Origin: Candidatus Absconditicoccus praedator
GTDB lineage: Bacteria > Patescibacteriota > Gracilibacteria > Absconditabacterales > Absconditicoccaceae
DNA length: 32,000 nucleotides
NCBI RefSeq assembly: GCF_021057185.1
Contig: NZ_CP054059.1
Location: 990,001-1,022,000 of the forward strand
Direction: 5' to 3'
Within the stretch, counting starts at the first letter, position 1, and every line of letters starts with the position of its first letter. The notes below the pieces were generated by a model. It saw only the letters and a list, made by a program, of their open reading frames with translations, did not search any database and was not told the origin of the DNA. Position numbers and translations under genes: made by a program. Shown piece by piece: positions 4,873 through 28,248 of the stretch.

Positions 4873-7800
4873 TTATTTGTTATAGGATTTAATTAAATTA
4901 TCATACAAAAATACAGGTATAATAATCAAAGTCAAAATAGCAGACACAGACAAACCAAATATTATAGACCAAGCCAAACCACTCCAAACCGGGTCTCCAA
5001 GAATAGTTGTAATTCACAAAACTGTAGTCAAAGAAGTAATAATAATAGGTCTAAGTCTGGTTTTACCTGCATTTATTATACTAGACTTCAAAGTCCATCA
5101 TCTTGCCAAAAGATTGTTCATATACTCTATCAGAATAATCGCATTTCAAACAACAATACCTGCCAATGCTATCACTCATATCATAGAAGTTGCACTAAAA
5201 TACTCACCTGTAAGCAAATACAACATAGTAAAACCTGGGAAAACACCAAAAAATCATAAAAGGAAAGTTATCATTATAACACCTCAAATAGCAAATCACT
5301 TGAACTGACCCACCATCAAGAAATATATCAACATTAAAGCTATTATCATAGCAACACCAAGATCTGCAAAAGTATCCATAGTAACTTCCCACTCTCATCA
5401 AAAATCTATTTGGAATTTTTCTCCAGTTGCTTTATCCTGTATTTCAACTCAATATGGACTCCATCAAGTCATTTCAAATGCATCTCCCCAAAAATCATCA
5501 TTGAAAAATGAAACAAACAATCCTATCACAGGATACACCACAGAATTTTCTCACATTTCTCAATAAATATATGCAGTTGGTCTAAGCTGATCTGTTCTTT
5601 TGAAATCATCAGACTCCATAGGCACAATATCCGCTACTTCTTTCAGTGGCACTTTTCTTCAAGTTTCACTTGTAAACCTGATATCATCAAAACTATTAAT
5701 ATCATCAGCATATTCATCATCTGCTCTTACAAACAATCATATTTCTTCTCTTGCAGAATCATCACGGTATATTCCAACCTTTCATCCATCAAATACATTA
5801 TAAACAGTATTCCTTATTTGTTCTGCACTCAACCCAAGTCTGGTTGCTTTTTCATGATTTATTCTAACATCATAAGTTGTTTGATAATCTTGAACAGTAG
5901 TATAAACATCTTCTACACTTTCTTTTGATAAATAATCATAAGTTGTTTGATACATCCAATTTGTTAGATTATTTATTTCCTGATAAGAGGTACCTGGTTG
6001 GCCTGACACCTTCATTTTATAAGTTGCTTGAACAGGTGGACCTGGTGGTTCCTCCAAAACTCTAATTTCAGCATCTGGATATTTTTCTTTTATATGTTTT
6101 GTAAGCAAATCTCTAAATTTTATTACAAATTCTGGAGAACTTATATCTCTATTATCTTTGTTTAGTATATTTACTCTACTAGATATTTGATTTTGTTGCT
6201 GCCTTTCTGCTGCACCACGGAAAGTATTTGCAAAATCAGGAACAGGAGGCAATCCTACCCAATAAGATGTGTTTTTAATTATATTCAAATCTTGCTGAGG
6301 ATATTTATCGTTGTCCACTTCTGGAGAAAATTTTCTCATAAAATCTGACATGTGTTGAGCAACTTGTTTTGATTTATCCAACGATGTATCTCTTGGCATA
6401 TCTATCCAAACAAAGAAATTATCCTGATCTGACTTAGGCAGCATTTGAGCCTTGAATATATTCAAAAATATTGGAACAAAAACAACCAGTCACAAAGCTC
6501 ACCAAAAAATCATTTTTAGAGAACTTCTTCTAAGTTTTTTGTTTTCTCATATAAAGTACTCAAGTATGTTTACATACCATTTTTCAATTTTTGTTGTTGA
6601 AACTTCATGAGCTCAACTATCAGCAACTTTATCAACATCCTTTAGCTTGTATGATTCTTTTTTCTTATCAAATCTTGGATTGTCAGCCAACATATAGGCA
6701 ATAAATGGATTTATACTAAATGCTATAAAAAACGAAGCAGTCAGTGCTATTATTGCATATTGAGGGATGGGTCACATATACTCTCCCATCATATCAGCCA
6801 CAAAAAACATTGCCACAAACGCCAAAATTCTAGTAATAGTAGCCAAAACCACTCCAAAACCTACTTCATCTACAGCATCTTTGATTGCTTGTAGTTTATT
6901 TTTTCAAGTTTTAACTCTTTCATCTAAATGCCTAGAAATATTTTCTACTACAACAGTACTATTATCTACCAACATACCTAATACAAGTATCAAAGCAAAA
7001 AGAGTTATTCTGTTTACATTATCTCATATACTTAAGGCAACAAAAAATGTAATACCAAGGGCCAATGGTATAGCAATACTATTATTTAATGCATCTCTAA
7101 ATCAAAGATAAAACAACAAAACCAAAAACACTATAATAATAGCCTGAAAAAGATTAGTTAAAAGCATATTAGTGGCACTTTGAGCAGTTTGTCAGTCGTC
7201 CTGTACTGGCTGAATATGGTAACCTTCTGGAAGTGTAGGTTCAAGTTTTTCTATTTTTTCTTCTATATCATCCACCAAGAAAATAGAATTTTTATCTGGA
7301 GCTTTTGCTATACCAAGATACACTGCATCTTTGGAAGATTTATGATCTGCAAAAAAAGTATAATGAGTTTGTGGAGATGCTCATTTATATATTCTAGCAA
7401 GATCACCAAGATACACAGGAGCTCACTCATGCTCTCAAACTACAAGTCTTTCTATATCCTCTACTGAAGAATACTCTCCTGACACCTTCACTTGAGACAA
7501 ACTATCACCGTATGATATAGTTCATCAAGGCTGATTTTCATTATTTTCTTTGATAGTTTGAATAACTTGTAGCATATCAACCCCTCTTGTATGAAATTTT
7601 TCTATATCAAAAAGTATATTTATATTTTCTTTTTCTGCTCAATTCAGATAAAACCTTGTTGTTCAATCAATCTGTTTGAACTCATCAACCAACTGGTCTC
7701 ATATCTTCCTAAGTTGTAGCATATTTTCCTCGTCGTCTAATGGCTTGTCTTCATGATAAACTGCTATTGTGTATATAGGAATTTCATCTGGATCAATTGG

Positions 7801-8193
7801 TTGCACATCAGGTCTTTCTACTCAGTATGGAGACAGATCTAGATTGGAGTATATTTTGTTGTAAAGTCTTGTAGTTGCAACTTCTTGATCCATCCCAACC
7901 TCAAAACTTACCATTACTCATGCTTTGTGTGGCATTGAAGTTCATTGAATATCATCTACTCATTCTATTTGTGAAAATACTTGTTCCATTTCACGAGTAA
8001 CAAGATTTTTTACTTGTTGAGAATTATACCCTGGTGCTTCTGCCATAATCTGAAATGCTGGCACTTCTATGTCTGGATTGTACTGTTTTGGTATAGTATA
8101 CCAAGAAAAAAATCAGGCAAAAACAATACAGATTATTACCACAGCAGTTATTTTAGGATTTTGTATCCAAAAATTCGCAAATTTTCAAAACAT
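4873..8193 (-). CDS. RND-superfamily efflux transporter (AcrB/AcrD/AcrF-like), 1106 aa
   Basis: ATG 8193, TAA 4873-4875, 3321 nt, continuous under table 25. N-terminus MFGKFANFWIQNPKITAVVIICIVFAGFFSWYTIPKQYNPDIEVPAFQI. TM bundle with FLVLLFYLGFRDALNNSIAIPLALGITF...GMLVDNSTVVVENISRH. C-terminal repeat LAGIVVGNAIILIEY...AGKTRLRPIIITSLTTVLG. Confidence 0.9.
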
Positions 8194-8310
8194 CGTTAAA
8201 TTTTTATTAAATTAAATATGACTTTAAAACAAATCCATTTATATCATTCCTACATAAAACACAATAGTTTCTACTAAAAATCTATTCTATTTTAACACTC
8301 TAAATTTTTC

Positions 8311-10212
8311 TTATCTTAAGATGTCACCATACTCTATATCACCTTCCACAATACAATCTCACATACTACAAGCTTTCTTATCCACAAAAACCTTCTCAAA
8401 ATTGTTTTCAGATTTTTTCTTGTATACAAATGAATTTCAATAATCATACCTTATTTTATTGTATGGTACAGTTAAACCATAATCTCTAGACTCTCACAAA
8501 AACACATCCAAATTCATTCATATTCTTAATTCTTGAGGAGTTTCATTAAGAGTTATTTCTACAGGTAATGTTCTGGAGAACTCATCTACAATAGGTCATA
8601 TATTACTCACATATCATTCATACTCTTTTTCATTGAAGTCGGTTTTAGCTATAGCATAATCTCATTCAGTTATATCTTCCATCTCACTTTCAGATACCAT
8701 CACATCAATTTGTAAATCTTCCATAGAAGAAATCTCAAACATAGCAACCTGAGGATTTACCAACTGTCATATTTGAACATATTTTTTAGTAATTATTCAA
8801 TCAAATGGAGCATATATTACTGAGTCATCTAGTTCTTGAGACTTCATATCCAATTCCATATTCATCTCATCTATTTGTGCTTGTATTTCTGATAGTTCTG
8901 CTTGTTTTTGATCTTTTTGAGAATTTAGCATATTTTTTGCTTCTTCGTATTCTTGATTAGCTATTTCTATCTGGTTTTCAAGTACATCTTTTTCAGTTTG
9001 AACATCATCCAAATCTATATTTGAAGATATTTCAGACTGATCCACTTTTTCTTTTGCTGTATTGTACTCTTTTTCAGCAGAATCTATAGCATTCTGAAGC
9101 TCATCAATCGCAGATTTTTCTTTTTCCTTGAAATCATCTATATTTTGTAAAGATGCTTGTATTCATACATTAAAACTTCAGTCTGTTCATATTATCATAT
9201 CTTCTATATCTGACTGATAGTTGGTAGTTTTTTCTTTCAGCTCATCTATTTTTGATTGAGGAAAAGTTGATCATGAAACACTGTTATCCAAAACATCATA
9301 AAAAAGGTATGAAAAACTACTTAAATCAGAAAAAAAATCCTCGCCATACTCAAGAAGATCTTTAGTTTTCTCTTTTCTTTCTTCTCATTCATAAGAATCC
9401 AACTCATCAATTTTATCAATATACTCTTCATAATCAGATCTTAGGCTCTCCCACTGCCTTTCTGATCTATCTTTCAATGAAGATTTTCTTGCCGAAAGAT
9501 TTGTTTCAAAATGATTGTTTTTATTTTTATTTGCATCTGATACTCACAAAATCTCATCAGTAAAATCCAAAAAATTTCTTGAAAGATTTCTAGAGTTTCT
9601 CAAAGCAGACTCAGCACCATCATATATACTTTTCTCTTCTTGTTCCAATTGAGAAGATTTATTTTCCAAGTTTAATTTTGCCATATCCAACTGTAGTTGA
9701 GCATTTTCCTTTTGTGTATTGGCTATATTTTGCTGTGTTTGGGAAAGTTGTTCAACATTTACAACCGAACTTCAAGCGTGCTCCAACTGTCTTTGAATTA
9801 TGTTTATATTTTCTTCTGCTTGTTGAACTTGAGATCTAGTAGCCTCTATTTGTTGTTCAAACATATTTTCAGTATTCTGCTGAAGATTTTCCATGGTTTG
9901 TATAGTATTTTCTATACCATCATAAGCTATAGAAGCATAGTTTGTATCAATATTTGCTATTGGCTGTCCTTGTCTTACAAAATCACCCTCTTCATAATTT
10001 AAATTCACTATAAATCATTCTACTTTTGGCTGTAATGTTGTTTGTCTATCAGGCTGTACTACACCTACATAAGACTCTTCACTCATTAATGCTCAAGTAG
10101 ATACCTCATATTCACTTTGATATGTTTTTGGTTTTGAAGAAGTCTCTTCTACACCACATCAGTATATTGTAGATATTAGTATAAACATTCATAACATTAA
10201 AAACTTTTTCAT
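8311..10212 (-). CDS. HlyD/membrane-fusion-protein family efflux adaptor, predicted lipoprotein, 633 aa with an extended coiled coil
   Basis: ATG 10212, TAA 8311-8313, 1902 nt. Signal and lipobox-like MKKFLMLGMFILISTIYGCG, with the Gly before the Cys encoded by TGA. Lipoyl-like FIVNLNYEEGDFVRQGQPIANID. About 370 aa of heptad-rich Q/E/K sequence. Then SVIYAPFDGIITKKYVQIGQLVNPQ and a beta-barrel-like tail. It lies directly upstream of the RND gene. Confidence 0.8.
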
Positions 10213-10317
10213 CCAGATAATATTATATTATAAATTATTTTGAAAATAAATATTTTTTTCTAATCTTCTAGAAAAAATATTAAAAAAACAAAAAAAGCAA
10301 ATACAAATTAATCATTA

Positions 10318-20148: not shown

Positions 20149-20472
20149 TTATTTGTCTGACATTTCTCTTTTAAAATGATCAAATGCATGATTTACAAGA
20201 TCAGTGATATTTTTAAAAGGTACATCATTTTGATATATCATACCTTTTCAGTCAAGATTTAATCTGAAAGACCCTTCATATTTTTCTTGTTTATTTTTTC
20301 TTACATCTATCTCAAATCTTGCTTCTGCATCATCCTTTTGTAAAGCTGCATTAAGATATCTATCAAGCTTTCAGTTTATGTTTTTTTCTATCAAAGTCTT
20401 TAAATCTTCTTGTAAAGCATCAGTAATTCAATCAAACTTATAATTAATTTTTATATTTTCATTCTCTTGCAT
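20149..20472 (-). CDS. hpf: ribosome hibernation/translation-inhibition factor (RaiA/HPF, S30EA family), 107 aa
   Basis: ATG 20472, TAA 20149-20151. IKINYKFDGITDALQEDLKTLIEKNINGKLDRYL...ARFEIDVRKNKQEKYEGSFRLNLDGKGMIYQNDVPFKNITDLVNHAFDHFKRE follows the RaiA/HPF pattern. Confidence 0.7.
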
Positions 20473-20532
20473 TTATTTTATTTTTAAGTAATATAAATAT
20501 AAATTTAACAATATAGAATATACTAAAAAAAA

Positions 20533-20837
20533 CAAAAAAATCAACAAAATTATTAAATTCATACAAACAGCCCTATATTGATAATTTAAAATAATATATT
20601 ATGATAGAAGATAAAAATTATATACAAAAACTTGTAGAACAAAAAGACATTGAATGACTTAAAAGGGAATGGCAAACTATTGTCAATATAAAATCACAAA
20701 TAGTCGATGCTTTATCAACTTGTTCAAAAAGGAGACAAAAAGATTTTAAAACCTTAGAAGAGCTTGAAAAAAAGCAAAGACAAATTACTCAAGCTCTGAA
20801 TGAACTTGAACCAAAATCAAAAACTAGTCATTAACAA
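20533..20837 (+). repeat. direct repeat, copy 1 (about 305 bp; core 20613-20837)
   Basis: The 225-bp core matches 25709-25933 with 4 mismatches and no indel (offset 5096 bp). The upstream 22-mer caaaaaaatcaacaaaattatt (20533-20554) recurs at 25633-25654. The stretch between is more diverged, with a 4-nt length difference. Confidence 0.9.
20601..20834 (+). CDS. small helical protein, 77 aa (hypothetical), intact copy
   Basis: ATG 20601, TAA 20832-20834. [77 protein letters not shown]. Confidence 0.6.
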
Positions 20838-21022
20838 GTTTAGTCTTGGATTGTTTCAACAAAACTTAATTTTTATTATCTTAGAATTGTTGACTTTTTT
20901 ATTCAAACTTTTTTCTTAGCTACCTAAAACCTTCAAACATCCTCCTTAATCTCTTTCCTTTTTTGCTTACTCTAGTTATCCTAATTACTGTTTATTATAC
21001 TTATTATTTCCCAAAAGATTTT

Positions 21023-21919
21023 TTATACTATTCACTCATTTAGTCTTCTAAGCAACAAACTTGTTTCTTCTCTTTCCTTTTTTTCTCCTTCTAATCTTTC
21101 TTCTCTTGCTTGTTCTACTTCTTCTAATTTTTGAATTGCTGATTCATAAAGTTCTTTTGAAATAGTTCATGCTGGTATTTCTATATGGTTTCATCTTGGG
21201 TATTCTATAGTTCATCAGTGAAAGTATGCATCCAGTTCTTCTCTTGTGACAGGGTCTTGTCGATAATTGTACCTATCATCTCATATCTGGTCTAATAAGT
21301 TTTCTTTGGCTGTATTAAACTCATCTTCATATTTATCTTCTGGGATTGAATCTTCACGTCTTATTATATCTCTCACCCTTGCTATTCATCTACTATTAAA
21401 CAACTCTATTCAATGATAACTTAAATCATCCACATTATCCAACTGTGCCTTCATTGTAACAAACTGTATAGTATCCCAAGCTTCTACAAATTCTGCACTA
21501 AATATATCTATCTCTCTTCATTTCTCTCATTCTGTTTTTGTACTAAGATCTCAACTTTCATCCAACTTTCTTCTTTCTGAAGATTCAAATATTCTTAGAT
21601 CTCAATCCTCAAATTCTATTTTGTATCAAGCAGCTTTTGCTGAAACTGTATATCGTTCTATTGTTTTATCTCTCACTCAATCTCTTAAATCTACATGGAT
21701 CTGATACTCTAAATCCATGCTAAATATAGATAAAGGATGGTTTGTATCTTTTTTGTATACCAAAAATCTATCGTCTGCTATCTCTTCCACTCATACATTA
21801 TCTATATCATATCAGTCTCTTTCAAGTCAGGCTGATAGTATTTCTTCATTCCTTTCCAAAAATTCAGCTTCTCTTTCTTGTCCTTGTTGCTCTATTTTAT
21901 TATCCATTTTTTCATTCAT
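21023..21919 (-). CDS. acidic hypothetical protein, 298 aa (third gene of the orphan operon)
   Basis: ATG 21919, TAA 21023-21025, 897 nt, checked codon by codon. MNEKMDNKIEQQGQEREAEFLERNEEILSAGLERDGYDIDNVGVEEIADDRFLVYKKDTNHPLSIFSMDLEYQIHVDLRDG... It starts 12 nt after the stop of the 1094-aa gene. Confidence 0.65.
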
Positions 21920-21931
21920 TTTTAACTAATT

Positions 21932-24900
21932 TTATCAAGGTAAATATTTTTCTATAAAATCTTCACTGGTTTCCTCTTCAGGTAGTCTCTCTCTAAGCTG
22001 TTCAAGTACAACATTCCTAAAATACTCACTTCACAATCCATCTATATCATAGATATGTTTTTGATCTTTTTTCTCTATAAGAGCCTGCTCGAATAGTCTC
22101 TTCATCCTAGACTTCTCTTGATTTAATTTAATAATGATTTCTTCATAATTATCAACGCTTTCTGGGCCTATCATATTAAGTAATCTTTCTTCAAAAATCT
22201 GGTCTATTATTCTTTTCCCTTCATCTCTAAACTCTCATGTGCTTATCTCTTCATTCTCTGCTTTCTCTACTAAATTTTCAAATCTACTATCAAGCTGGCC
22301 TTCTTCTCATTGATTTCATTCAAAATTATTCATTACACTTTCTAATGTAATTCCAGTAGTTAGTATACTTGTAGGTATTGTTCACCTTGCACTTAGTGTA
22401 GACAATGATCCTCAATAATCTGAATTTATAGCTCTTGTGGTTCATCTACCCATAAAAGCACCCAGTCATACTTTATCTGAAAAATCATTAAATCTCCTCA
22501 TTAAGTCACTAACTTCATCTGGAGATCTTGCTCTTCATCAATAAAACAATGCTACAATAAGGTTTGAAACAACTTCTTGAGTTAAATTTTCAGCACTCAT
22601 ATCTAACTCACCTTGAGAAAATCCATCTATTCCCATTGATATTCCCATTAAAGATGTAGCATCCATTGCTACTTCCCTTGATCTACTCATATCATCTCTA
22701 AATCTCATTCTTCTAGTAGCACCAAGATATCCAAATTGTGTCATAAATGTTAGTAAGCCTTCGGATACACCTTCACCATAAGGATTTTCAAAACTTTCCC
22801 CACTTAATGCACTATCTGTAACTTCCTCTCAAAGTAAATATCAAAAATGAAATGGAATAGCTTCACCTGCTCATCTTGCTCATCTTAAAGCATGTCATCA
22901 CATACTACTGCTATTATTTATCATAGCTCTAGCTCTTAGTCATCATCTAACATTTAAAACTCTTGCTCCACCTCTTGCTAACAAATATGAACCTCTAGCA
23001 GCTAATGCAACAGCTCATAATCATACAGCTGAAGCAGCTACTGTTATAGCTAATTCTCTTGCAACAATTGCTATTGCCTCTTTTTGAGTGTCTGACAAGT
23101 TGAATCGTCATATACCTTCAATATCTCAATACATTTCAAGTAAAGGATTGTCTCAATTATATCCACCACTACGATTAGAATTATTTTCAATTATCTCTTC
23201 AACAATAGCAGATTGTATTCATTTTTGTATAAATTCTTTACCTAAGTAATCTGACATATTATCAACTATCATATCCATATTTTCTTCCAAAAATCTTTTT
23301 CTTTCATCCTCTTCTGAGCTAAGATCTTCTTTATTTCTTAACTCTTCTAATTCTTCTTCTAATTCATTTCTTTGTGCTTCAATTAATCTTTCTCTGTCAT
23401 CAAAAGACTCTTGGATTTGTTCAAAAAATTCTCTTGCTTTTGTACTTGAATATTCTCAATTTTCATCATTAAAAAGTCACATTTGCATAAGTTTGAACAT
23501 CATAGTATTTTCTCATTCAGGTATACTATCTGCAAACTTTCAAGTTCTACTATCTACTCATTTTTCTTCTATCATTTTATCATATCTATCTACTTGAGGA
23601 GATGGTCACTGTGCTGAACTAATGGGTCTTTCAGGAACAAGTTCTCAGCTATCAGAAAATGTTTCTAAAGATTCATTAAATTCAGCAATAAGTCTATCTA
23701 TTCATTTTTCTCATACATAATCTATAAAATTATTAATTTCATCTTCTGATGGAATTTGTTCTAGATTTAATGGTATATAATCATCATATTCATTTAATGC
23801 ATCAGGATTTTCTAATATATACTCTGATATTTGTTCACTAAAATTTTCTCAGTCCAATCACAATTCTCTGATTGTTTCAAATGTTTTGATATATTTATCA
23901 TGTCATATATATTCATTGTCAAAAAAGTCTTTTACAATCTTTCTATCATCAAAAATTCTATCTAATCTTTCTCTTACCTCAGGGTCATCTGTGTCTACAA
24001 CACCAGTATGTTGCTCGTTTTCTATATCAAGGTTTTCATCGAAAATTTCTTCTATTACAACATCTCTTATTTCATCTAATCAGCTTTCAATTTTATCAAA
24101 AACATCTTCTTCCCAATTTATATCTCTTAGATAAGGATTCATTCTTGATGTCCTATCATTTGTCAATGTTTGAGATTTTATCAAACTATCAGACATGCTT
24201 TCAAAGATCTCATTTATTCTTTGAAAATTTTCATCATCTTGATTTAAAAATCTTGATCACTCTTCTATATTTTCTTCCAAAGCTTCCAAAAATATAGATA
24301 TTGTATCTACTTTTTCATTTATTCTTTCAGCTTTCTCATAAGTTTCTCTAAATTCATCACTTTCTACATATTCTCTTTGGGCTTCATAATTTTGCATCAT
24401 ATCCAACACTCAAGCAATAGGTTGATATTGTTCATTTGCAGACAAAAAATCATCTATAGAATCATATCATTGTGCTTCTTCTAAAATATCACTTAAATTC
24501 TCTCTATGTTTTTCTCAATCATATTGAAATTCAACTTTTCAGTCTGTCATATCCATATCTAGCACTCTATCAGTATTTTGTAGTTGCTCATAGTTTTCTT
24601 TTATTCATGGATAAGCATCTACATCTACACCATTGTGTTCAGCTATTTCTTCCCAACTTACTCACCTATATACAAGCTCCAAAATACTTATATAAATATC
24701 TTCTCAATCATGTCATTCATATTTCAACATTATCTCTCAAGTATCTGAAATTTTGAATAAATCACTTTGTTCAGGATTTATTTCTATTGATTCTCAAGCT
24801 TGTATCTGATCTGGACTTTGTAGTTGTGAGTTTGATTCCAAAATATCTTGCATATCAACTCAATGATCATCTGCAATTTTAGACAACACATCTCATGGTA

Positions 24901-25216
24901 ATATATCATATTGTATTATACCATCCAAATGTTCTTCTATGGAAGAGACAATATTATCTACCATATCTTTATTACTTTCTATGTTTTTACCTAATTCTAA
25001 AGACTCAATAACTAATTCTATAAAAGCATACTGTAAAGCTTCTTTTTCATACTCTTCAAGATCTTCACTATCAGACACCTGTTCCAAATGTTGCTCAGAT
25101 TTTTCTACAACATAAGAAACAAGTTCTTGCTTACTTTCATATTCAAGATTATCTTTTATATCTTCTGTATTTTCTTTTTCCTCTATTCTCCACATTGTGA
25201 AACTTTCAATGGACAT
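21932..25216 (-). CDS. giant acidic LysM-domain protein with central hydrophobic/Gly-Arg-rich segments, 1094 aa (hypothetical)
   Basis: ATG 25216, TAA 21932-21934, 3285 nt. Every codon was checked and there is no in-frame TAA or TAG, with dozens of TGA. LysM-like YDILPGDVLSKIADDHGVDMQDILESNSQLQSPDQIQAGESIEINP lies at about 24773-24910. The hydrophobic AIAIVARELAITVAASAVGLGAVALAA lies at about 22990-23077. A TGA-dense stretch VRGGLRARAM..MGGHALRGARGAG lies at about 22865-22951. Confidence 0.75.
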
Positions 25217-25218
25217 TT

Positions 25219-25470
25219 TTATAGATTATCCAGTAAAGATTCTGCCTCTTTTACTTCTTCTTGATATTCTTTTTCTTCTTTTTTCTTTTTTATTTTATTT
25301 TTTTGGTTTTGTAATAATAATCAAATTTTATCTTTTAAATTTGGATCTTTTTCCAAAGATTTTTTTACCAAAACTTTTTTAAATTCTTCTAATTGATCTA
25401 TAGTGTTAATTATTTTTTCTCTTTTATCTTCTGAAAATCTATCCCACTGAGAGATCAACTTTTTTTTCAT
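25219..25470 (-). CDS. small lysine-rich helical protein, 83 aa (first gene of the orphan operon)
   Basis: ATG 25470, TAA 25219-25221. MKKKLISQWDRFSEDKREKIINTIDQLEEFKKVLVKKSLEKDPNLKDKIGLLLQNQKNKIKKKKEEKEYQEEVKEAESLLDNL. Its stop is 2 nt from the ATG of the 1094-aa gene. Confidence 0.55.
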
Positions 25471-25632
25471 GCTCTGCCTCAAAAATAGGGATTTTTTGAT
25501 TTTATTTATATTTTCTTGGTTTCAACAACTCATAAAAAATTATGACAGCCTAAATACATAATAAATTATATCAGTTTTTTTATAAAATGCAAATTTGATT
25601 AATTACTAAAATAAGATTTTACAATACATATT

Positions 25633-25933
25633 CAAAAAAATCAACAAAATTATTTTATATGTACCCAAAATAATTTTATTGATTATCTAAAAATGATATT
25701 AATGAAAAAAAAATTATATACAAAAACTTGTAGAACAAAAAGACATTGAATGACTTAAAAGGGAATGACAAACTATTGTCAATATAAAATCACAAATAGT
25801 CGATGCTTTATCAACTTGTTCAAAAAGGAGACAAAAAGATTTTAAAACCTTAGAAGAGCTTGAAAATAAGCAAAGACAAATTACTCAAGCTCTGAATGAA
25901 CTCGAACCAAAATCAAAAACTAGTTATTAACAA
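25633..25933 (+). repeat. direct repeat, copy 2 (about 301 bp; core 25709-25933)
   Basis: See copy 1. Mismatches fall at 25768 (TGG>TGA), 25867 (AAA>AAT), 25903 (synonymous) and 25925 (CAT>TAT). Confidence 0.9.
25702..25930 (+). pseudogene. second copy of the 77-aa gene, out of frame with its ATG because of an A9 tract (pseudogene or phase-variable)
   Basis: The conserved frame runs from 25712 to TAA 25928-25930 but is closed upstream by TAA at 25700-25702. The ATGs at 25693 and 25702 are in the +1 frame. ATG 25702 is followed by 9 A (25705-25713), and removing one A gives MKKNYIQKLVEQ... in frame. Confidence 0.6.
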
Positions 25934-27563
25934 AATGCAGGTAAACTCAAGCATAATTTTCCACTCATACAACTTTTAACTCCTCTCAATCATCCAAAAT
26001 CAAACTTCAAGTATCAGAAGTCTGACCACCCGATTCTGCATAAAAAGGCGTTTTATCCAAAACTACTACTCTTTGTCAGTCTACTTCAAAATCTTTTAAA
26101 ACACTACTATCTTGAGTTTCCAAAGTATCATATCCAACAAATTTAGTGGCAGGAATTCAATGCAAATACTTCGCCCAGTCTATTCATCTTTTGAATACAT
26201 CTTTTGTTCACTCACGAGATCTTTCTCTGGCTTTTTCCATTTCTTTTTCAAATCAACACAAGTCCACAGCAAGTCAATTATCTGTAGCTATCTCCTTGGT
26301 AAGTTCTACAGGAAAACCATATGTATCATACAAAAGAAAAATATTTTTTCACTCAATCTCTTTTGAAGAATTTTTCATTATTTCATTCAATTTCTGCCTT
26401 CAATTATTTATTGTTTTTTGGAATTGAGATATTTCGTTTAGGATAGAAGAAACTATTGATTCTGTATTATTAGAAATTTCAATATAGTAAGTTCAATATT
26501 TCTTATTAATTTGATCAACCAGGTTTTTCACAAAATCATCCAATTTTGCATTTTCATCAAGAGAAATTACCGAATAATACAGCCTTCTAATCAGTCTCCT
26601 AAGCACATATCCCCTACCCTCATTACTTGCAATTACTCAGTCTCATATCATAAAAACAGCTGTCCTTATATGATCTGCTATTATTCTAAAATGTTTTGTA
26701 GTATTGTTTTCCTTATCAGAAAAATCATTTTCATGTTTTTCAAATGGAGGATATTTTTTGTCTACCAAATCTTGTATAGCAAGCATTATAAACTCAAAAA
26801 GATCACACTCAAAAACTGTTTGTTGTCATTGCAAAATCATTGCCAGTCTTTCCAATCACATACCTGTATCTACATTTTGTTGAGAAAGTTTGGAAAAAGT
26901 TCAGTCTTCATTTTTGTAAAATTCCATAAACACATTATTCCAAACCTCCAAAAATCTATCATTTTCTCACATATCCCAATCATTTGGCCCCCACTCTTCT
27001 CATCTATCAATATGAATTTCTGCACAAGGCCCACATGGACCTATCTCTCAAGCAGGACCTCGGAAGTTATCTTCCATTCAAATAGCTTTAATTCTTTGGT
27101 CAGGAATTCATATTTCATTAAGAATTTTTCTAGCCTCAGTATCTTCTCATATTCACAAACTTTCATCACCAGCAAAAATTGTAACCCCTATTTTTTCCAT
27201 GGGAACTCATATATACTCATTCAAGAACCTGATAGACCATGTCAAAGATTCTTTTTTGAAGTAATCACCCAAAGACCAATTCCCTAGCATCTCAAAAAAT
27301 GTAAGATGTCTTTCATCACCAACTTCATCTATATCTCAAGTTCTTAATGATTTTTGCGTATTATAAAGTCTTTTTCATTGAGGATGAGGTTTTCATACAA
27401 GATAAGGCACAAGTTGTTGCATTCCTGCAGTAGTAAACAACACAGTTTTGTCTTGGCTATCTGGTACTAGTGAAGCATATTTTAGATAAGTATGATTTCT
27501 ATCTGGATCTTGCCAAAACTCATCCCAAAGTTTTCTAATTTCTTCTGAGGTTAATTTTTTCAT
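25920..27563 (-). CDS. alaS: alanyl-tRNA synthetase, catalytic and tRNA-recognition part only (547 aa); editing and C-Ala domains absent
   Basis: ATG 27563, TAG 25920-25922, 1644 nt. [118 protein letters not shown]. It ends ...GVYLHFVNN*, with the final codons lying inside repeat copy 2. Confidence 0.88.
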
Positions 27564-27720: not shown

Positions 27721-28248
27721 CTATGAATGACAATCAATAAAATCTTCGGTAAACCTCCAATATTCATAACTTAAAGCCATAGGATTCTTGGTAAGAGTAT
27801 AATCCAAAACATGCGTTAGACCATTCTCACCTCCCACAGCAACAATATCTCCTCTTCTCAATTCCAAAAGATCCTCAAACCACAATTCTTTTCTGGGACC
27901 AATCACCCAAGTATTAACCAATTGTCTTGGAAAACCATTTAGAGCTGTCCAATAAGTTTGGCTTTGGTCAGGTAAATAAGTATTTATAGCAACCAAAATT
28001 TTGGAAGAAGATTTATTTGGATCTGCAAGCCTATACAAGTCATGCAAACATTGCCTTACCAATACAGGAAAGGCATTTGTCACCAAACCTTTTTCAATTT
28101 TTGGGGGATTTTTAGTAAAGAATCTGATATTTTGAAATCTACTATTTCTCCCCTTCCTACCAAGTCGTACATGATAACCATTTTTCTGGTCTTGACATAC
28201 AGGAATTCCTTTTTGCAAATAACCTTGTTTAAAATGGTAACACTGCAT
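27721..28248 (-). CDS. hypothetical protein, 175 aa, with atypical codon usage (no UGA)
   Basis: Intact in the standard code. ATG 28248 with AAGGA at 28256-28260 (7-nt spacer) and TAG at 27721-27723. MQCYHFKQGYLQKGIPVCQDQKNGYHVRLGRKGRNSRF...RRGDIVAVGGENGLTHVLDYTL...FIDCHS. All 12 Gly are GGN. Local GC is about 38-40% on two 60-nt lines I counted. Confidence 0.7.
   Translation of the reverse strand: MQCYHFKQGYLQKGIPVCQDQKNGYHVRLGRKGRNSRFQNIRFFTKNPPKIEKGLVTNAFPVLVRQCLHDLYRLADPNKSSSKILVAINTYLPDQSQTYWTALNGFPRQLVNTWVIGPRKELWFEDLLELRRGDIVAVGGENGLTHVLDYTLTKNPMALSYEYWRFTEDFIDCHS

What the first reader, a model, noticed from the sequence alone, without database searches (positions are those of the whole stretch)
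20533..25933. A 5.1-kb segment bracketed by ~300-bp direct repeats that each carry a copy of a 77-aa gene
Two same-orientation repeats lie 5096 bp apart. Their core regions, 20613-20837 and 25709-25933, span 225 bp with 4 mismatches and no indel. A conserved 22-mer lies a further ~60 bp upstream of each. Between them sits only the three-gene orphan operon on the opposite strand.

The distal repeat abuts a truncated alaS, and the proximal one sits just beyond the hpf promoter region. Repeats this long and this similar are unusual in a small, streamlined CPR-type genome. They are substrates for RecA-mediated deletion, inversion or amplification of the enclosed cassette.

I see no integrase, transposase or short att-like sites. 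The architecture looks like cassette exchange or capture by homologous recombination at a multi-copy 'handle' gene rather than classical mobile-element insertion.
Basis: partly seen in the sequence, partly recalled or inferred. Interest (0 to 1): 0.72.

Follow-up and report, generated by a model that had tools for sequence, protein, structure and literature searches.

The report
Strain-specific gene cassette flanked by duplicated small gene
In the predatory ultra-small bacterium Candidatus Absconditicoccus praedator, a 5.1-kb block of three cell-envelope-type genes sits in the leader of a conserved small gene, carries its own copy of that gene, and is absent from a near-identical relative; it is a tidy but fairly ordinary recombination-driven insertion, not a new kind of mobile element.

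Summary
The repeat is real: 20613-20837 vs 25709-25933, 225 bp with 4 mismatches, plus an exact 22-mer upstream of each copy. It is the only repeat of 40 nt or more in the window. The genome is Ca. Absconditicoccus praedator, where UGA encodes Gly.

A relative with 98% identical flanks has the order greA / "hpf" / small gene / alaS with no cassette. The junction falls exactly in the 22-mer, so the variable unit is 5100 bp (20555-25654).

alaS is not truncated by the event. It ends at the same residue in the relative, and short alaS is the rule in Absconditabacteria.

The small gene is not a multi-copy handle. It is a single-copy partner of alaS, conserved in related species.

Copy A is intact. 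Copy B, in the ancestral position, has lost its reading frame (ATG followed by A9).

Both copies differ from the relative's allele at 36 shared sites (dS 0.55, against 0.02-0.10 in the flanks). That indicates an imported allele followed by gene conversion.

The cassette genes are not orphans: the LysM protein and g300 have homologues in other Absconditabacteria.

Best reading: recombinase-free integration at the 22-mer between diverged copies of one locus, then conversion and decay of copy B. Interest is modest.

The parts
20149..20472 (-). It is the left chromosomal flank, present and 98.1% identical in the relative.
   Evidence: No Pfam or PDB support for the name hpf.
20473..20532 (+). P: the chromosomal region upstream of the small gene, 96.7% identical to the relative.
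20533..20554 (+). Left copy of the exact 22-mer CAAAAAAATCAACAAAATTATT. The junction between relative-like flank and cassette-specific sequence lies within it.
20555..25654 (.). The 5100-bp segment absent from the relative (equivalently 20533-25632). It comprises U_A, small-gene copy A, spacer, g300, g1097, g106, P' and the right 22-mer.
   Evidence: Empty-site alignment.
20555..20612 (+). U_A: the leader of copy A. It is unrelated to the relative's leader except for a weak ~30-nt similarity just before the start codon.
20601..20834 (+). Small-gene copy A: intact, 77 aa, annotated by NCBI (P0001). Predicted helical hairpin.
20613..20837 (+). 225-bp repeat core, copy A.
20838..21022 (.). Spacer between copy A and the 3' end of g300. 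It contains no remnant of alaS.
21023..21919 (-). g300: a 298-aa acidic protein with no Pfam family. Homologues (44% identity) lie directly downstream of g1097-C-terminus-like ORFs in two other Absconditabacteria.
21932..25216 (-). g1097: a 1094-aa acidic protein with a LysM domain (aa 105-146) and one conserved hydrophobic segment (aa ~713-735 in P0003 numbering, about 7 higher in the 1094-aa model). Remote homologue P0125 in another Absconditabacterium.
25219..25533 (-). g106: a 104-aa lysine/glutamate-rich protein, first gene of the three-gene operon. No homologue found.
25540..25632 (.). P': the cassette-borne region upstream of the right 22-mer. It holds the best promoter-like site for the minus-strand operon (25593 to 25565, TTTGCA-17-TATAAT). 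It is not significantly similar to P.
25633..25654 (+). Right copy of the exact 22-mer.
25655..25708 (+). U_B: the chromosomal leader of the ancestral-position copy, orthologous to the relative's leader (50 of 54 identical, plus 16-nt and 5-nt indels).
25702..25713 (+). ATG followed by an A9 run. The ATG is out of frame with the ORF, and A8 would restore the frame. Relative to the relative's allele this region carries a 5-nt deletion and a G-to-A change.
   Evidence: The A9 run is also present in the independent assembly L010.
25709..25933 (+). 225-bp repeat core, copy B. It is the body of the small gene in its ancestral position and now carries the copy-A allele.
25920..27563 (-). alaS: native short form, 547 aa, catalytic and tRNA-recognition domain only. 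Its last 4 codons overlap the 3' end of the small gene, as they do in the relative.

Best explanation
What it is: a strain-level insertion of a 5.1-kb gene module into the leader of a conserved small gene, made by recombination between two diverged copies of that small-gene locus.

Ancestral state (shown): the upstream gene, then P, the 22-mer, a leader and the small gene, which converges on and overlaps the native short alaS.

Step 1 (inferred): a DNA segment from a related code-25 lineage carried its own diverged version of the locus (P', 22-mer, U_A, small gene) next to the operon g106-g1097-g300. This segment was probably a circle. It recombined with the chromosome at the 22-mer, the only stretch of perfect identity between the two versions. 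A single Campbell-type crossover there gives exactly the observed order: P / 22-mer / U_A / copy A / operon / P' / 22-mer / U_B / copy B / alaS.

Step 2 (inferred from the incongruent sequence groupings): gene conversion overwrote the body of the resident copy B with the copy-A allele, covering 25730-25924.

Step 3 (shown as sequence state): copy B then lost its reading frame at the start (ATG plus A9) and picked up derived changes, including Trp24 to Gly. Copy A, now behind the old chromosomal promoter region, is the working copy.

Consequences (inferred): the 225-bp direct repeats leave the module poised for RecA-type deletion, which would regenerate one intact small gene next to alaS. The cargo is probably a cell-envelope or prey-contact function. 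It encodes a large acidic LysM protein with one conserved hydrophobic segment and a conserved partner, g300.
For: - Empty site. The relative contig L001/L002 reads greA / 107-aa gene / small gene / alaS. The window joined at the 22-mer aligns to it seamlessly. Flanks are 98.0-98.6% identical and the 22-mer is 100% identical.
- Mosaic pattern. Left of the 22-mer, copy A's flank matches the relative. Right of it, copy B's leader and alaS match the relative. U_A and P' do not match.
- Incongruent groupings. Of 40 variable core sites, 36 group A with B against the relative. Core divergence is 17.3%, against 1.8% in the flanks (Fisher p = 1e-17). dS is 0.55, against 0.02-0.10 (p = 2e-7), with dN/dS 0.25, so this is an older allele and not faster protein evolution.
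- Copy B is decaying. It has the frameshift at ATG plus A9, confirmed in an independent assembly. Two of the 4 A/B differences are derived in B, one of them at a Trp shared by copy A and the relative's allele.
- Ancestral position. In species whose alaS is 65-66% identical, a convergent 77-80-aa gene overlaps or abuts the alaS 3' end. One of these is 39% identical to copy A (pairwise E = 3e-10). None has a second copy or the cassette.
- No recombinase. No integrase, transposase or phage-like family is found in the cassette or the window, and there are no inverted terminal repeats.
- Native-type cargo. Codon usage correlates at r = 0.977 with host genes, and 63-100% of Gly codons are UGA.
- Related modules exist. 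g1097 has a remote homologue (E = 2e-67), and the g1097 C-terminus plus g300 pair recurs in two other Absconditabacteria.
Against: - Direction of the event is not proven. Only one empty-site relative is known, on a 1.36-kb contig, and more distant species have different left neighbours.
- A 22-bp identity is at the lower limit for RecA-type crossover.
- The proposed conversion tract covers every informative site to within 9 nt of the end of homology, which is tight.
- No circular form or donor locus has been seen.
- The complete genome could not be scanned for further copies of the 22-mer or core, or for recombinases encoded elsewhere.
- The function of the cargo rests on one LysM domain, one hydrophobic segment and gene neighbourhood.
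Confidence: 0.55

Rival explanations
1. Old arrangement, with loss in the relative. The two-copy structure with the cassette is ancestral to both strains, and A and B are old, diverged paralogues. The relative lost copy A and the cassette by recombination between the two 22-mers, keeping an unconverted B allele. In A. praedator, B was later converted by A.
For: This gives the same junction at the 22-mer and the same incongruent groupings. The cassette's native codon usage and the presence of related modules in other Absconditabacteria fit long residence in the lineage.
Against: It needs one more event than the insertion model. Species with 65-66% identical alaS have a single small gene and no cassette at the locus. 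Deletion would have used the 22-bp identity. If conversion had already happened, the 225-bp core would have been a far better substrate.
Confidence: 0.2
2. Site-specific integrative element. The 22-mer is an att core, and a recombinase encoded elsewhere in the genome, or since lost, inserted the 5.1-kb element. The element's copy of the small gene serves to keep the target locus functional after insertion.
For: Exact 22-bp direct repeats sit precisely at the junction, with dissimilar sequence on both sides. The empty site in the relative is intact.
Against: No recombinase is found in the element or in the 32-kb window. The element carries a homologue of the whole target locus, not just an att site. 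The 22-mer is not found flanking anything comparable in other genomes; genome-collection hits were chance matches. The 77-aa gene and g1097 have no relatives in IMG/VR.
Confidence: 0.12
3. One reading: the 77-aa gene is a multi-copy 'handle' at which different cassettes are captured and exchanged by homologous recombination.
For: The gene copies flank a cassette, no mobile-element genes are present, and the repeats are recombination substrates.
Against: Only two copies are detectable. One other homologue exists among 5.8 billion protein clusters, and none in JGI metagenome or IMG/VR DNA. In relatives the gene is single-copy and syntenic with alaS. No alternative cassette was seen at the locus.
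Confidence: 0.04
4. Assembly artefact: a duplicated or mis-joined segment in the published genome.
For: Repeats are classic sites of mis-assembly. The left junction could not be checked independently.
Against: An independent Logan assembly from run SRR15691272 is 100% identical across 21257-25738, including the right junction and the A9 run, and stops 30 nt into the core as expected for a true repeat. The two copies differ at 4 sites and have different flanks. The source contig is a closed 1.13-Mb genome.
Confidence: 0.02

Closest known systems
Campbell-type integration of a circular DNA by a single homologous crossover, as with integrative or suicide plasmids and homology-driven islands
   Same: The insert is flanked by direct duplicates of the shared segment. 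Each flanking copy is a hybrid of resident and incoming sequence. No dedicated recombinase is needed, and the event can be reversed by recombination between the duplicates.
   Different: The crossover maps to only 22 bp of identity inside a strongly diverged homologous region. The incoming copy is a diverged natural allele of a chromosomal gene. No circular form has been observed.
Integrase-mediated genomic islands and prophages that insert into a gene and carry a replacement copy of its end (attL/attR direct repeats)
   Same: There are short exact direct repeats at the junctions and an intact empty site in a close relative. The element supplies a working copy of the target gene, so insertion does not inactivate it.
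   Different: There is no integrase, excisionase or phage gene. Composition is not foreign. The target is the leader of a small protein gene and not a tRNA or tmRNA gene. The element carries the whole gene, not only its end.
Gene conversion between duplicated genes in bacteria (concerted evolution of paralogues such as the duplicate tuf genes; stated from general knowledge)
   Same: The coding bodies are 98% identical while the flanks are unrelated or far more diverged. The gene body and the flanks give conflicting groupings.
   Different: The pair here is 5.1 kb apart in direct orientation, was created by an insertion, and one member is already frameshifted.
Integron gene cassettes
   Same: Small promoter-poor gene units are added at a fixed chromosomal site.
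   Different: There is no IntI integrase and no attC or attI structure. The cassette has its own promoter-like region and is a three-gene operon on the opposite strand.

Membership tests
Integrase-mediated genomic island / integrative element | Tyrosine or serine recombinase gene within or next to the element | tested here: not met
   Pfam, PHROGs and NCBIfam scans of all four cassette proteins gave no recombinase family. A Pfam scan of the other unassigned window ORFs gave one weak, sub-threshold match (PF10136, E = 0.027, 13 bits against a cut-off of 24.6) inside an HlyD-type protein.
Integrase-mediated genomic island / integrative element | Short exact direct repeats (att) at both junctions and an intact empty site in a relative | tested here: met
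   The exact 22-mer lies at 20533 and 25633, and the relative L001 has one copy at the junction.
Integrase-mediated genomic island / integrative element | Composition or codon usage deviating from the host | tested here: not met
   GC is 22-31%. Of Gly codons, 63-100% are UGA. Codon-usage correlation with host genes is 0.977, against 0.970 for host half versus host half. The composition profile is flat.
Insertion sequence / transposon | Transposase gene and terminal inverted repeats | tested here: not met
   No transposase family was found. No inverted repeat of 40 nt or more exists in the window, and none of the inverted pairs found pairs the two ends of the segment.
Campbell-type homologous integration | Insert flanked by direct duplicates of a segment shared by donor and recipient | tested here: met
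   The 22-mer and the 225-bp core are present on both sides in direct orientation.
Campbell-type homologous integration | Each flanking copy is a donor/recipient hybrid, switching at the crossover point | tested here: met
   The left copy is chromosomal P followed by foreign U_A. The right copy is foreign P' followed by chromosomal U_B. The switch lies inside the 22-mer.
Campbell-type homologous integration | Circular or excised intermediate, and dependence on RecA | not testable with these tools
Gene conversion between paralogues | Conflicting groupings between the gene body and its flanks | tested here: met
   36 of 40 variable core sites group A with B against the relative, while B's flanks group with the relative. 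dS is 0.55, against 0.02-0.10.
Integron cassette | IntI integrase with attI/attC recombination sites | tested here: not met
   No integrase was found. No imperfect inverted-repeat attC-like structure lies at the cassette ends.
   Only one annotated protein from this genome and one homologue elsewhere. None in JGI metagenomes or IMG/VR. Single copy in relatives. The complete genome could not be scanned at the DNA level.
LysM-domain protein (g1097) | Pfam PF01476 match above the gathering score | tested here: met
   38 bits against a cut-off of 20.9, E = 1.6e-9, aa 105-146. NCBI names it a LysM peptidoglycan-binding domain-containing protein.
Short ('mini') alanyl-tRNA synthetase | Aminoacylation and tRNA-recognition domain only, with no editing (tRNA_SAD) or C-Ala (DHHA1) domain | tested here: met
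   Only PF01411 matches, at profile positions 1-532 of 552. The same architecture and length occur in dozens of Absconditabacteria homologues, whereas Gracilibacteria homologues have PF07973 with or without PF02272.

The most novel reading that the evidence does not exclude
The locus could be the first example of a recombinase-free, self-complementing integrative cassette in recoded CPR bacteria. In this reading, a prey-contact module (LysM protein plus partners) travels between Absconditabacteria strains attached to its own allele of a conserved small gene. It docks at a 22-bp leader sequence, and the flanking repeats let it be switched out again. The A9 tract of copy B would act as a slippage-prone on/off switch. 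A linked possibility is that the small helical-hairpin protein, conserved next to the lineage's short alaS, is a trans-acting partner of that enzyme.
Probability: 0.1. Interest if true: 0.6.

Novelty: new member of a known kind. Interest (0 to 1): 0.35.

Why it matters
Closed genomes and strain-level comparisons are rare for CPR bacteria, and how these tiny genomes gain and lose genes is poorly documented. This locus gives a clean, base-pair-resolved case: an empty site in a relative, the crossover point, a converted paralogue and an early pseudogene. All of this occurs without any mobile-element gene. The cargo may be relevant to how a predatory epibiont binds its prey's cell wall.

The work also corrects three tempting mis-readings:
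- alaS is not truncated by the event.
- The operon is not made of orphans.
- The small gene is not multi-copy.

It also brings out a lineage-wide short alanyl-tRNA synthetase with a conserved small neighbour, which may deserve its own study.

Tried and rejected
- Table-11 ORF calling gave fragmented genes. I replaced it with code 25 after UGA aligned with invariant Gly positions in SHMT and YchF.
- Rfam and tRNA scans of the window found nothing.
- A scan of the genome collection for the 22-mer gave 7 chance hits in unrelated taxa with no flanking similarity. The A. praedator genome is not in that collection, so a genome-wide copy count was impossible.
- Exact-protein look-ups failed.
- DNA-level scans for the small-gene family in JGI metagenomes and IMG/VR, and for g1097 in IMG/VR, found no relatives.
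- The small protein's predicted fold is a generic helical hairpin with no significant PDB match. The best E-value was 1.6. A hit to an AlaRS C-Ala fragment had probability 0.25 and is not evidence.
- The idea that the cassette split alaS is rejected. There is no alaS remnant next to copy A, and alaS ends at the same place in the relative.
- The idea that the 22-mer is a deeply conserved regulatory motif is not supported. It is absent upstream of the small gene in L011 and L013.
- The similarity between P and P' is not above shuffled controls.
- Fast protein evolution as the cause of the small gene's divergence is rejected, because dS and not dN is elevated.
- The founding paper (Yakimov et al. 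2022) is not in the library.

Full report
**Genetic code and source.** With the standard bacterial code the region breaks into short ORFs. Reading UGA as sense raises the total length of ORFs of 100 aa or more from 3,288 to 17,186 aa. UGA falls on invariant glycines: SE-G-YPGKRYY-GG in serine hydroxymethyltransferase, and GIV-G-LPNVGKST in YchF. So the code is 25. The 77-aa protein is 100% identical to a hypothetical protein of Candidatus Absconditicoccus praedator on a 1,129,696-bp contig. This organism is a predatory member of the Absconditabacteria (SR1) (PMC13293708).

**The observation.**
- The repeat is as described: 20613-20837 vs 25709-25933, 225 bp, 4 mismatches and no indel.
- An exact 22-mer lies at 20533 and 25633.
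- The 22-mers are 5100 bp apart and the cores 5096 bp apart. The 54-58 nt between 22-mer and core (U_A, U_B) are largely dissimilar.
- It is the only repeat of 40 nt or more in the 32-kb window.
- Three genes lie between the repeats on the minus strand: g106 (104 aa), g1097 (1094 aa) and g300 (298 aa).
- An independent Logan assembly of the same strain (L010) is 100% identical to 21257-25738. It crosses the right junction and stops 30 nt inside core B, as a k-mer assembler would at a true repeat.

**Two corrections to the observation.**
- Only copy A is an intact gene (ATG at 20601). Copy B has no in-frame start codon. Its ATG at 25702 is followed by nine A's, and eight would be needed for the frame. 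The A9 run is also present in L010.
- The label 'hpf' for the 107-aa left neighbour has no Pfam or PDB support.

**The key comparison.** The small protein's only homologue among 5.8 billion protein clusters (P0002, 71% identity) lies on a 1.36-kb metagenomic contig, L001/L002. That contig reads greA / 107-aa gene / small gene / alaS, with nothing in between. Joining the window at the 22-mer (up to 20554, then from 25655) gives a sequence that aligns to L001 without a break.

| Segment | Identity to the relative |
|---|---|
| greA | 98.0% |
| 107-aa gene | 98.1% |
| Intergenic P | 96.7% |
| 22-mer | 100% |
| U_B | 50 of 54, plus two indels |
| alaS 3' part | 98.6% |

The variable unit is therefore 5100 bp (20555-25654) and its junction is the 22-mer, not the 225-bp core. 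Left of the 22-mer the relative matches the copy-A side. Right of it the relative matches the copy-B side.

**alaS.**
- In the relative, alaS ends at the same residue (...YLHFVNS* against ...YLHFVNN*) and overlaps the small gene's 3' end in the same way.
- Dozens of Absconditabacteria homologues at 44-66% identity are 521-602 aa long with only the catalytic Pfam domain. Gracilibacteria homologues are about 870 aa and have the editing domain.
- alaS is therefore natively short in this lineage and was not cut by this event.

**The small gene is an old neighbour of alaS, not a multi-copy handle.**
- In two further species whose alaS is 65-66% identical, a convergent 77- or 80-aa gene overlaps or abuts the alaS 3' end.
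- The 80-aa protein is 39% identical to copy A over 64 residues, with pairwise E = 3e-10.
- Their other neighbours differ (ftsA-ftsZ in one; a 94-aa gene and holA in the other). None has a second copy or the cassette.
- DNA-level scans of JGI metagenomes and IMG/VR for the family found nothing.
- Copy B therefore occupies the ancestral position and copy A came with the cassette.

**Conflicting histories within the repeat.**
- B's flanks are about 98% identical to the relative, but its 225-bp body is only 82.7% identical, with no indels. All 39 differences lie between 25730 and 25924, inside the coding sequence.
- Of 40 variable sites in the core, 36 group A with B against the relative. Two are B-specific, one is A-specific and one differs in all three.
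- The excess over the flanks is highly significant: p = 1e-17 for all sites and p = 2e-7 for synonymous sites.
- dS is 0.55, against 0.10 for the 107-aa gene and 0.02 for alaS, and dN/dS is 0.25. So this is a real protein-coding gene, and its divergence reflects a much older allele and not faster protein evolution.
- The simplest account is that the cassette brought in a diverged allele of the locus (U_A, copy A and P' are all unlike the resident sequences), and its coding body later overwrote that of copy B by gene conversion.
- Copy B then shows decay. It has a 5-nt deletion and a G-to-A change at the start relative to the relative's allele, which created ATG plus A9. It also has a derived Trp24-to-Gly change at a residue shared by copy A and the relative.

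**How the insertion most likely happened.** A single crossover between a circular DNA carrying P' / 22-mer / U_A / copy A / spacer / g300-g1097-g106 and the chromosomal P / 22-mer / U_B / small gene / alaS reproduces the observed order and the hybrid make-up of both flanks, provided it is placed in the 22-mer. The 22-mer is the only perfect identity between two otherwise diverged versions of the locus, so it is the natural site for homology-driven exchange. I could not exclude a site-specific recombinase acting in trans.
- No integrase, transposase or phage family was found in the cassette or elsewhere in the window.
- There are no inverted terminal repeats.
- The 22-mer is not conserved upstream of the small gene in more distant species.
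- The crossover, the circular intermediate, the direction of the event and the direction of conversion are inferences. An ancestral two-copy structure lost in the relative by 22-mer recombination fits the same data with one more event.

**The cargo.**
- The cassette is compositionally native. Codon-usage correlation with host genes is 0.977, and UGA-Gly is used heavily.
- g1097 has a LysM domain (E = 1.6e-9) and one strongly hydrophobic segment.
- An exhaustive HMMER search found one true remote homologue, P0125 (E = 2e-67). Its hydrophobic segment is at a similar position (aa ~722-748 in P0125, ~713-735 in P0003). It lies in assembly GCA_018420025.1, next to a type IV pilin-like gene and a 1,871-aa surface-type protein. 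I believe this assembly is Ca. Vampirococcus lugosii, but that identification rests on memory only.
- The C-terminal ~80-130 aa of g1097 followed by a g300 homologue (44% identity; E = 1e-36 and 2e-11) recurs in two other Absconditabacteria contigs.
- The genes are therefore a lineage-typical module and not orphans. A role at the cell envelope or in prey contact is a reasonable guess and remains unproven.
- The small protein is predicted as a helical hairpin (mean pLDDT 84) with no significant structural match.

**Consequences of the architecture (inferred).** Recombination between the 225-bp cores would delete the cassette and leave one intact small gene, with copy A's start, next to alaS. 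Recombination between the 22-mers would leave the frameshifted copy B. An A9 tract is prone to slippage, so copy B may not be fully silent. This is speculation.

**Verdict.** The 'multi-copy handle', 'truncated alaS', 'orphan operon' and 'no att-like site' elements are wrong. The locus is a well-resolved example of known processes (homologous integration, gene conversion, pseudogenisation) in an unusual organism. It is of modest interest in itself and has a more intriguing side observation about the lineage's short AlaRS and its conserved small neighbour.

Noticed in passing
window 25920-27563 (alaS); also L011-L015: AlaRS here has only the aminoacylation and tRNA-recognition domain (547 aa). 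The same short form (521-602 aa, PF01411 only) is found throughout Absconditabacteria, while Gracilibacteria keep the ~870-aa form. A natural mini-AlaRS has been reported as a rarity in Tupanvirus (PMC10036535). In the closest species the short alaS is always followed by a convergent 77-80-aa helical-hairpin gene, which raises the untested idea of a functional link.
   Followed up: partly
window 27721-28248 (-), in the 760-bp gap between alaS and ychF: A 175-aa ORF contains no UGA codon at all, in a genome where 50-100% of Gly codons are UGA. Its composition is odd (rich in Cys, His and Gln) and it has no Pfam hit. No Rfam family or tRNA/tmRNA is found in the gap. It is unclear whether it is a gene, a non-coding RNA or foreign DNA.
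   Followed up: partly
The name is unverified.
   Followed up: yes
window 25907-25883 and 20811-20787 (-): A terminator-like hairpin followed by a T-rich tail lies on the minus strand inside both repeat copies. In copy B it sits just downstream of the alaS stop codon, so the repeat may carry the alaS terminator antisense to the small gene. The hairpin looks weaker in the relative's allele.
   Followed up: no
L001, about 640-690 (upstream of the small gene at 698): The relative's leader contains a 16-nt tandem duplication (TTATTGATTATCTAAA, twice) that is absent from U_B in the window.
   Followed up: no
L016 898-4135: The remote homologue of g1097 is split into a 942-aa ORF and an overlapping 153-aa ORF that matches the g1097 C-terminus. 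This is either a frameshift, a sequencing error or a natural split. In L018 only the C-terminal piece exists, as a separate 91-aa ORF in front of the g300 homologue.
   Followed up: partly
L010 / P0004 (Logan) and ENA gene calls: Public gene calls for these recoded genomes translate UGA as Trp (Logan) or differ from code 25. The same gene therefore appears as a '95% identical' protein, and exact-sequence look-ups fail. This is a trap for homology counts in code-25 lineages.
   Followed up: yes
window 4873-10227 (-): A 633-aa HlyD-type membrane-fusion lipoprotein (Pfam-supported) lies next to a 1,112-aa ORF that I labelled AcrB-like from a brief look at its sequence only, without any search. 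If that label holds, they form an efflux pair, which would be notable in a genome this small.
   Followed up: no
samples ERZ27266011 / ERZ27265986 (L001, L012, L013, L017): One ENA metagenome project holds at least three different Absconditabacteria lineages, including the near-identical relative of A. praedator. It would be the place to look for more alleles of this locus.
   Followed up: no
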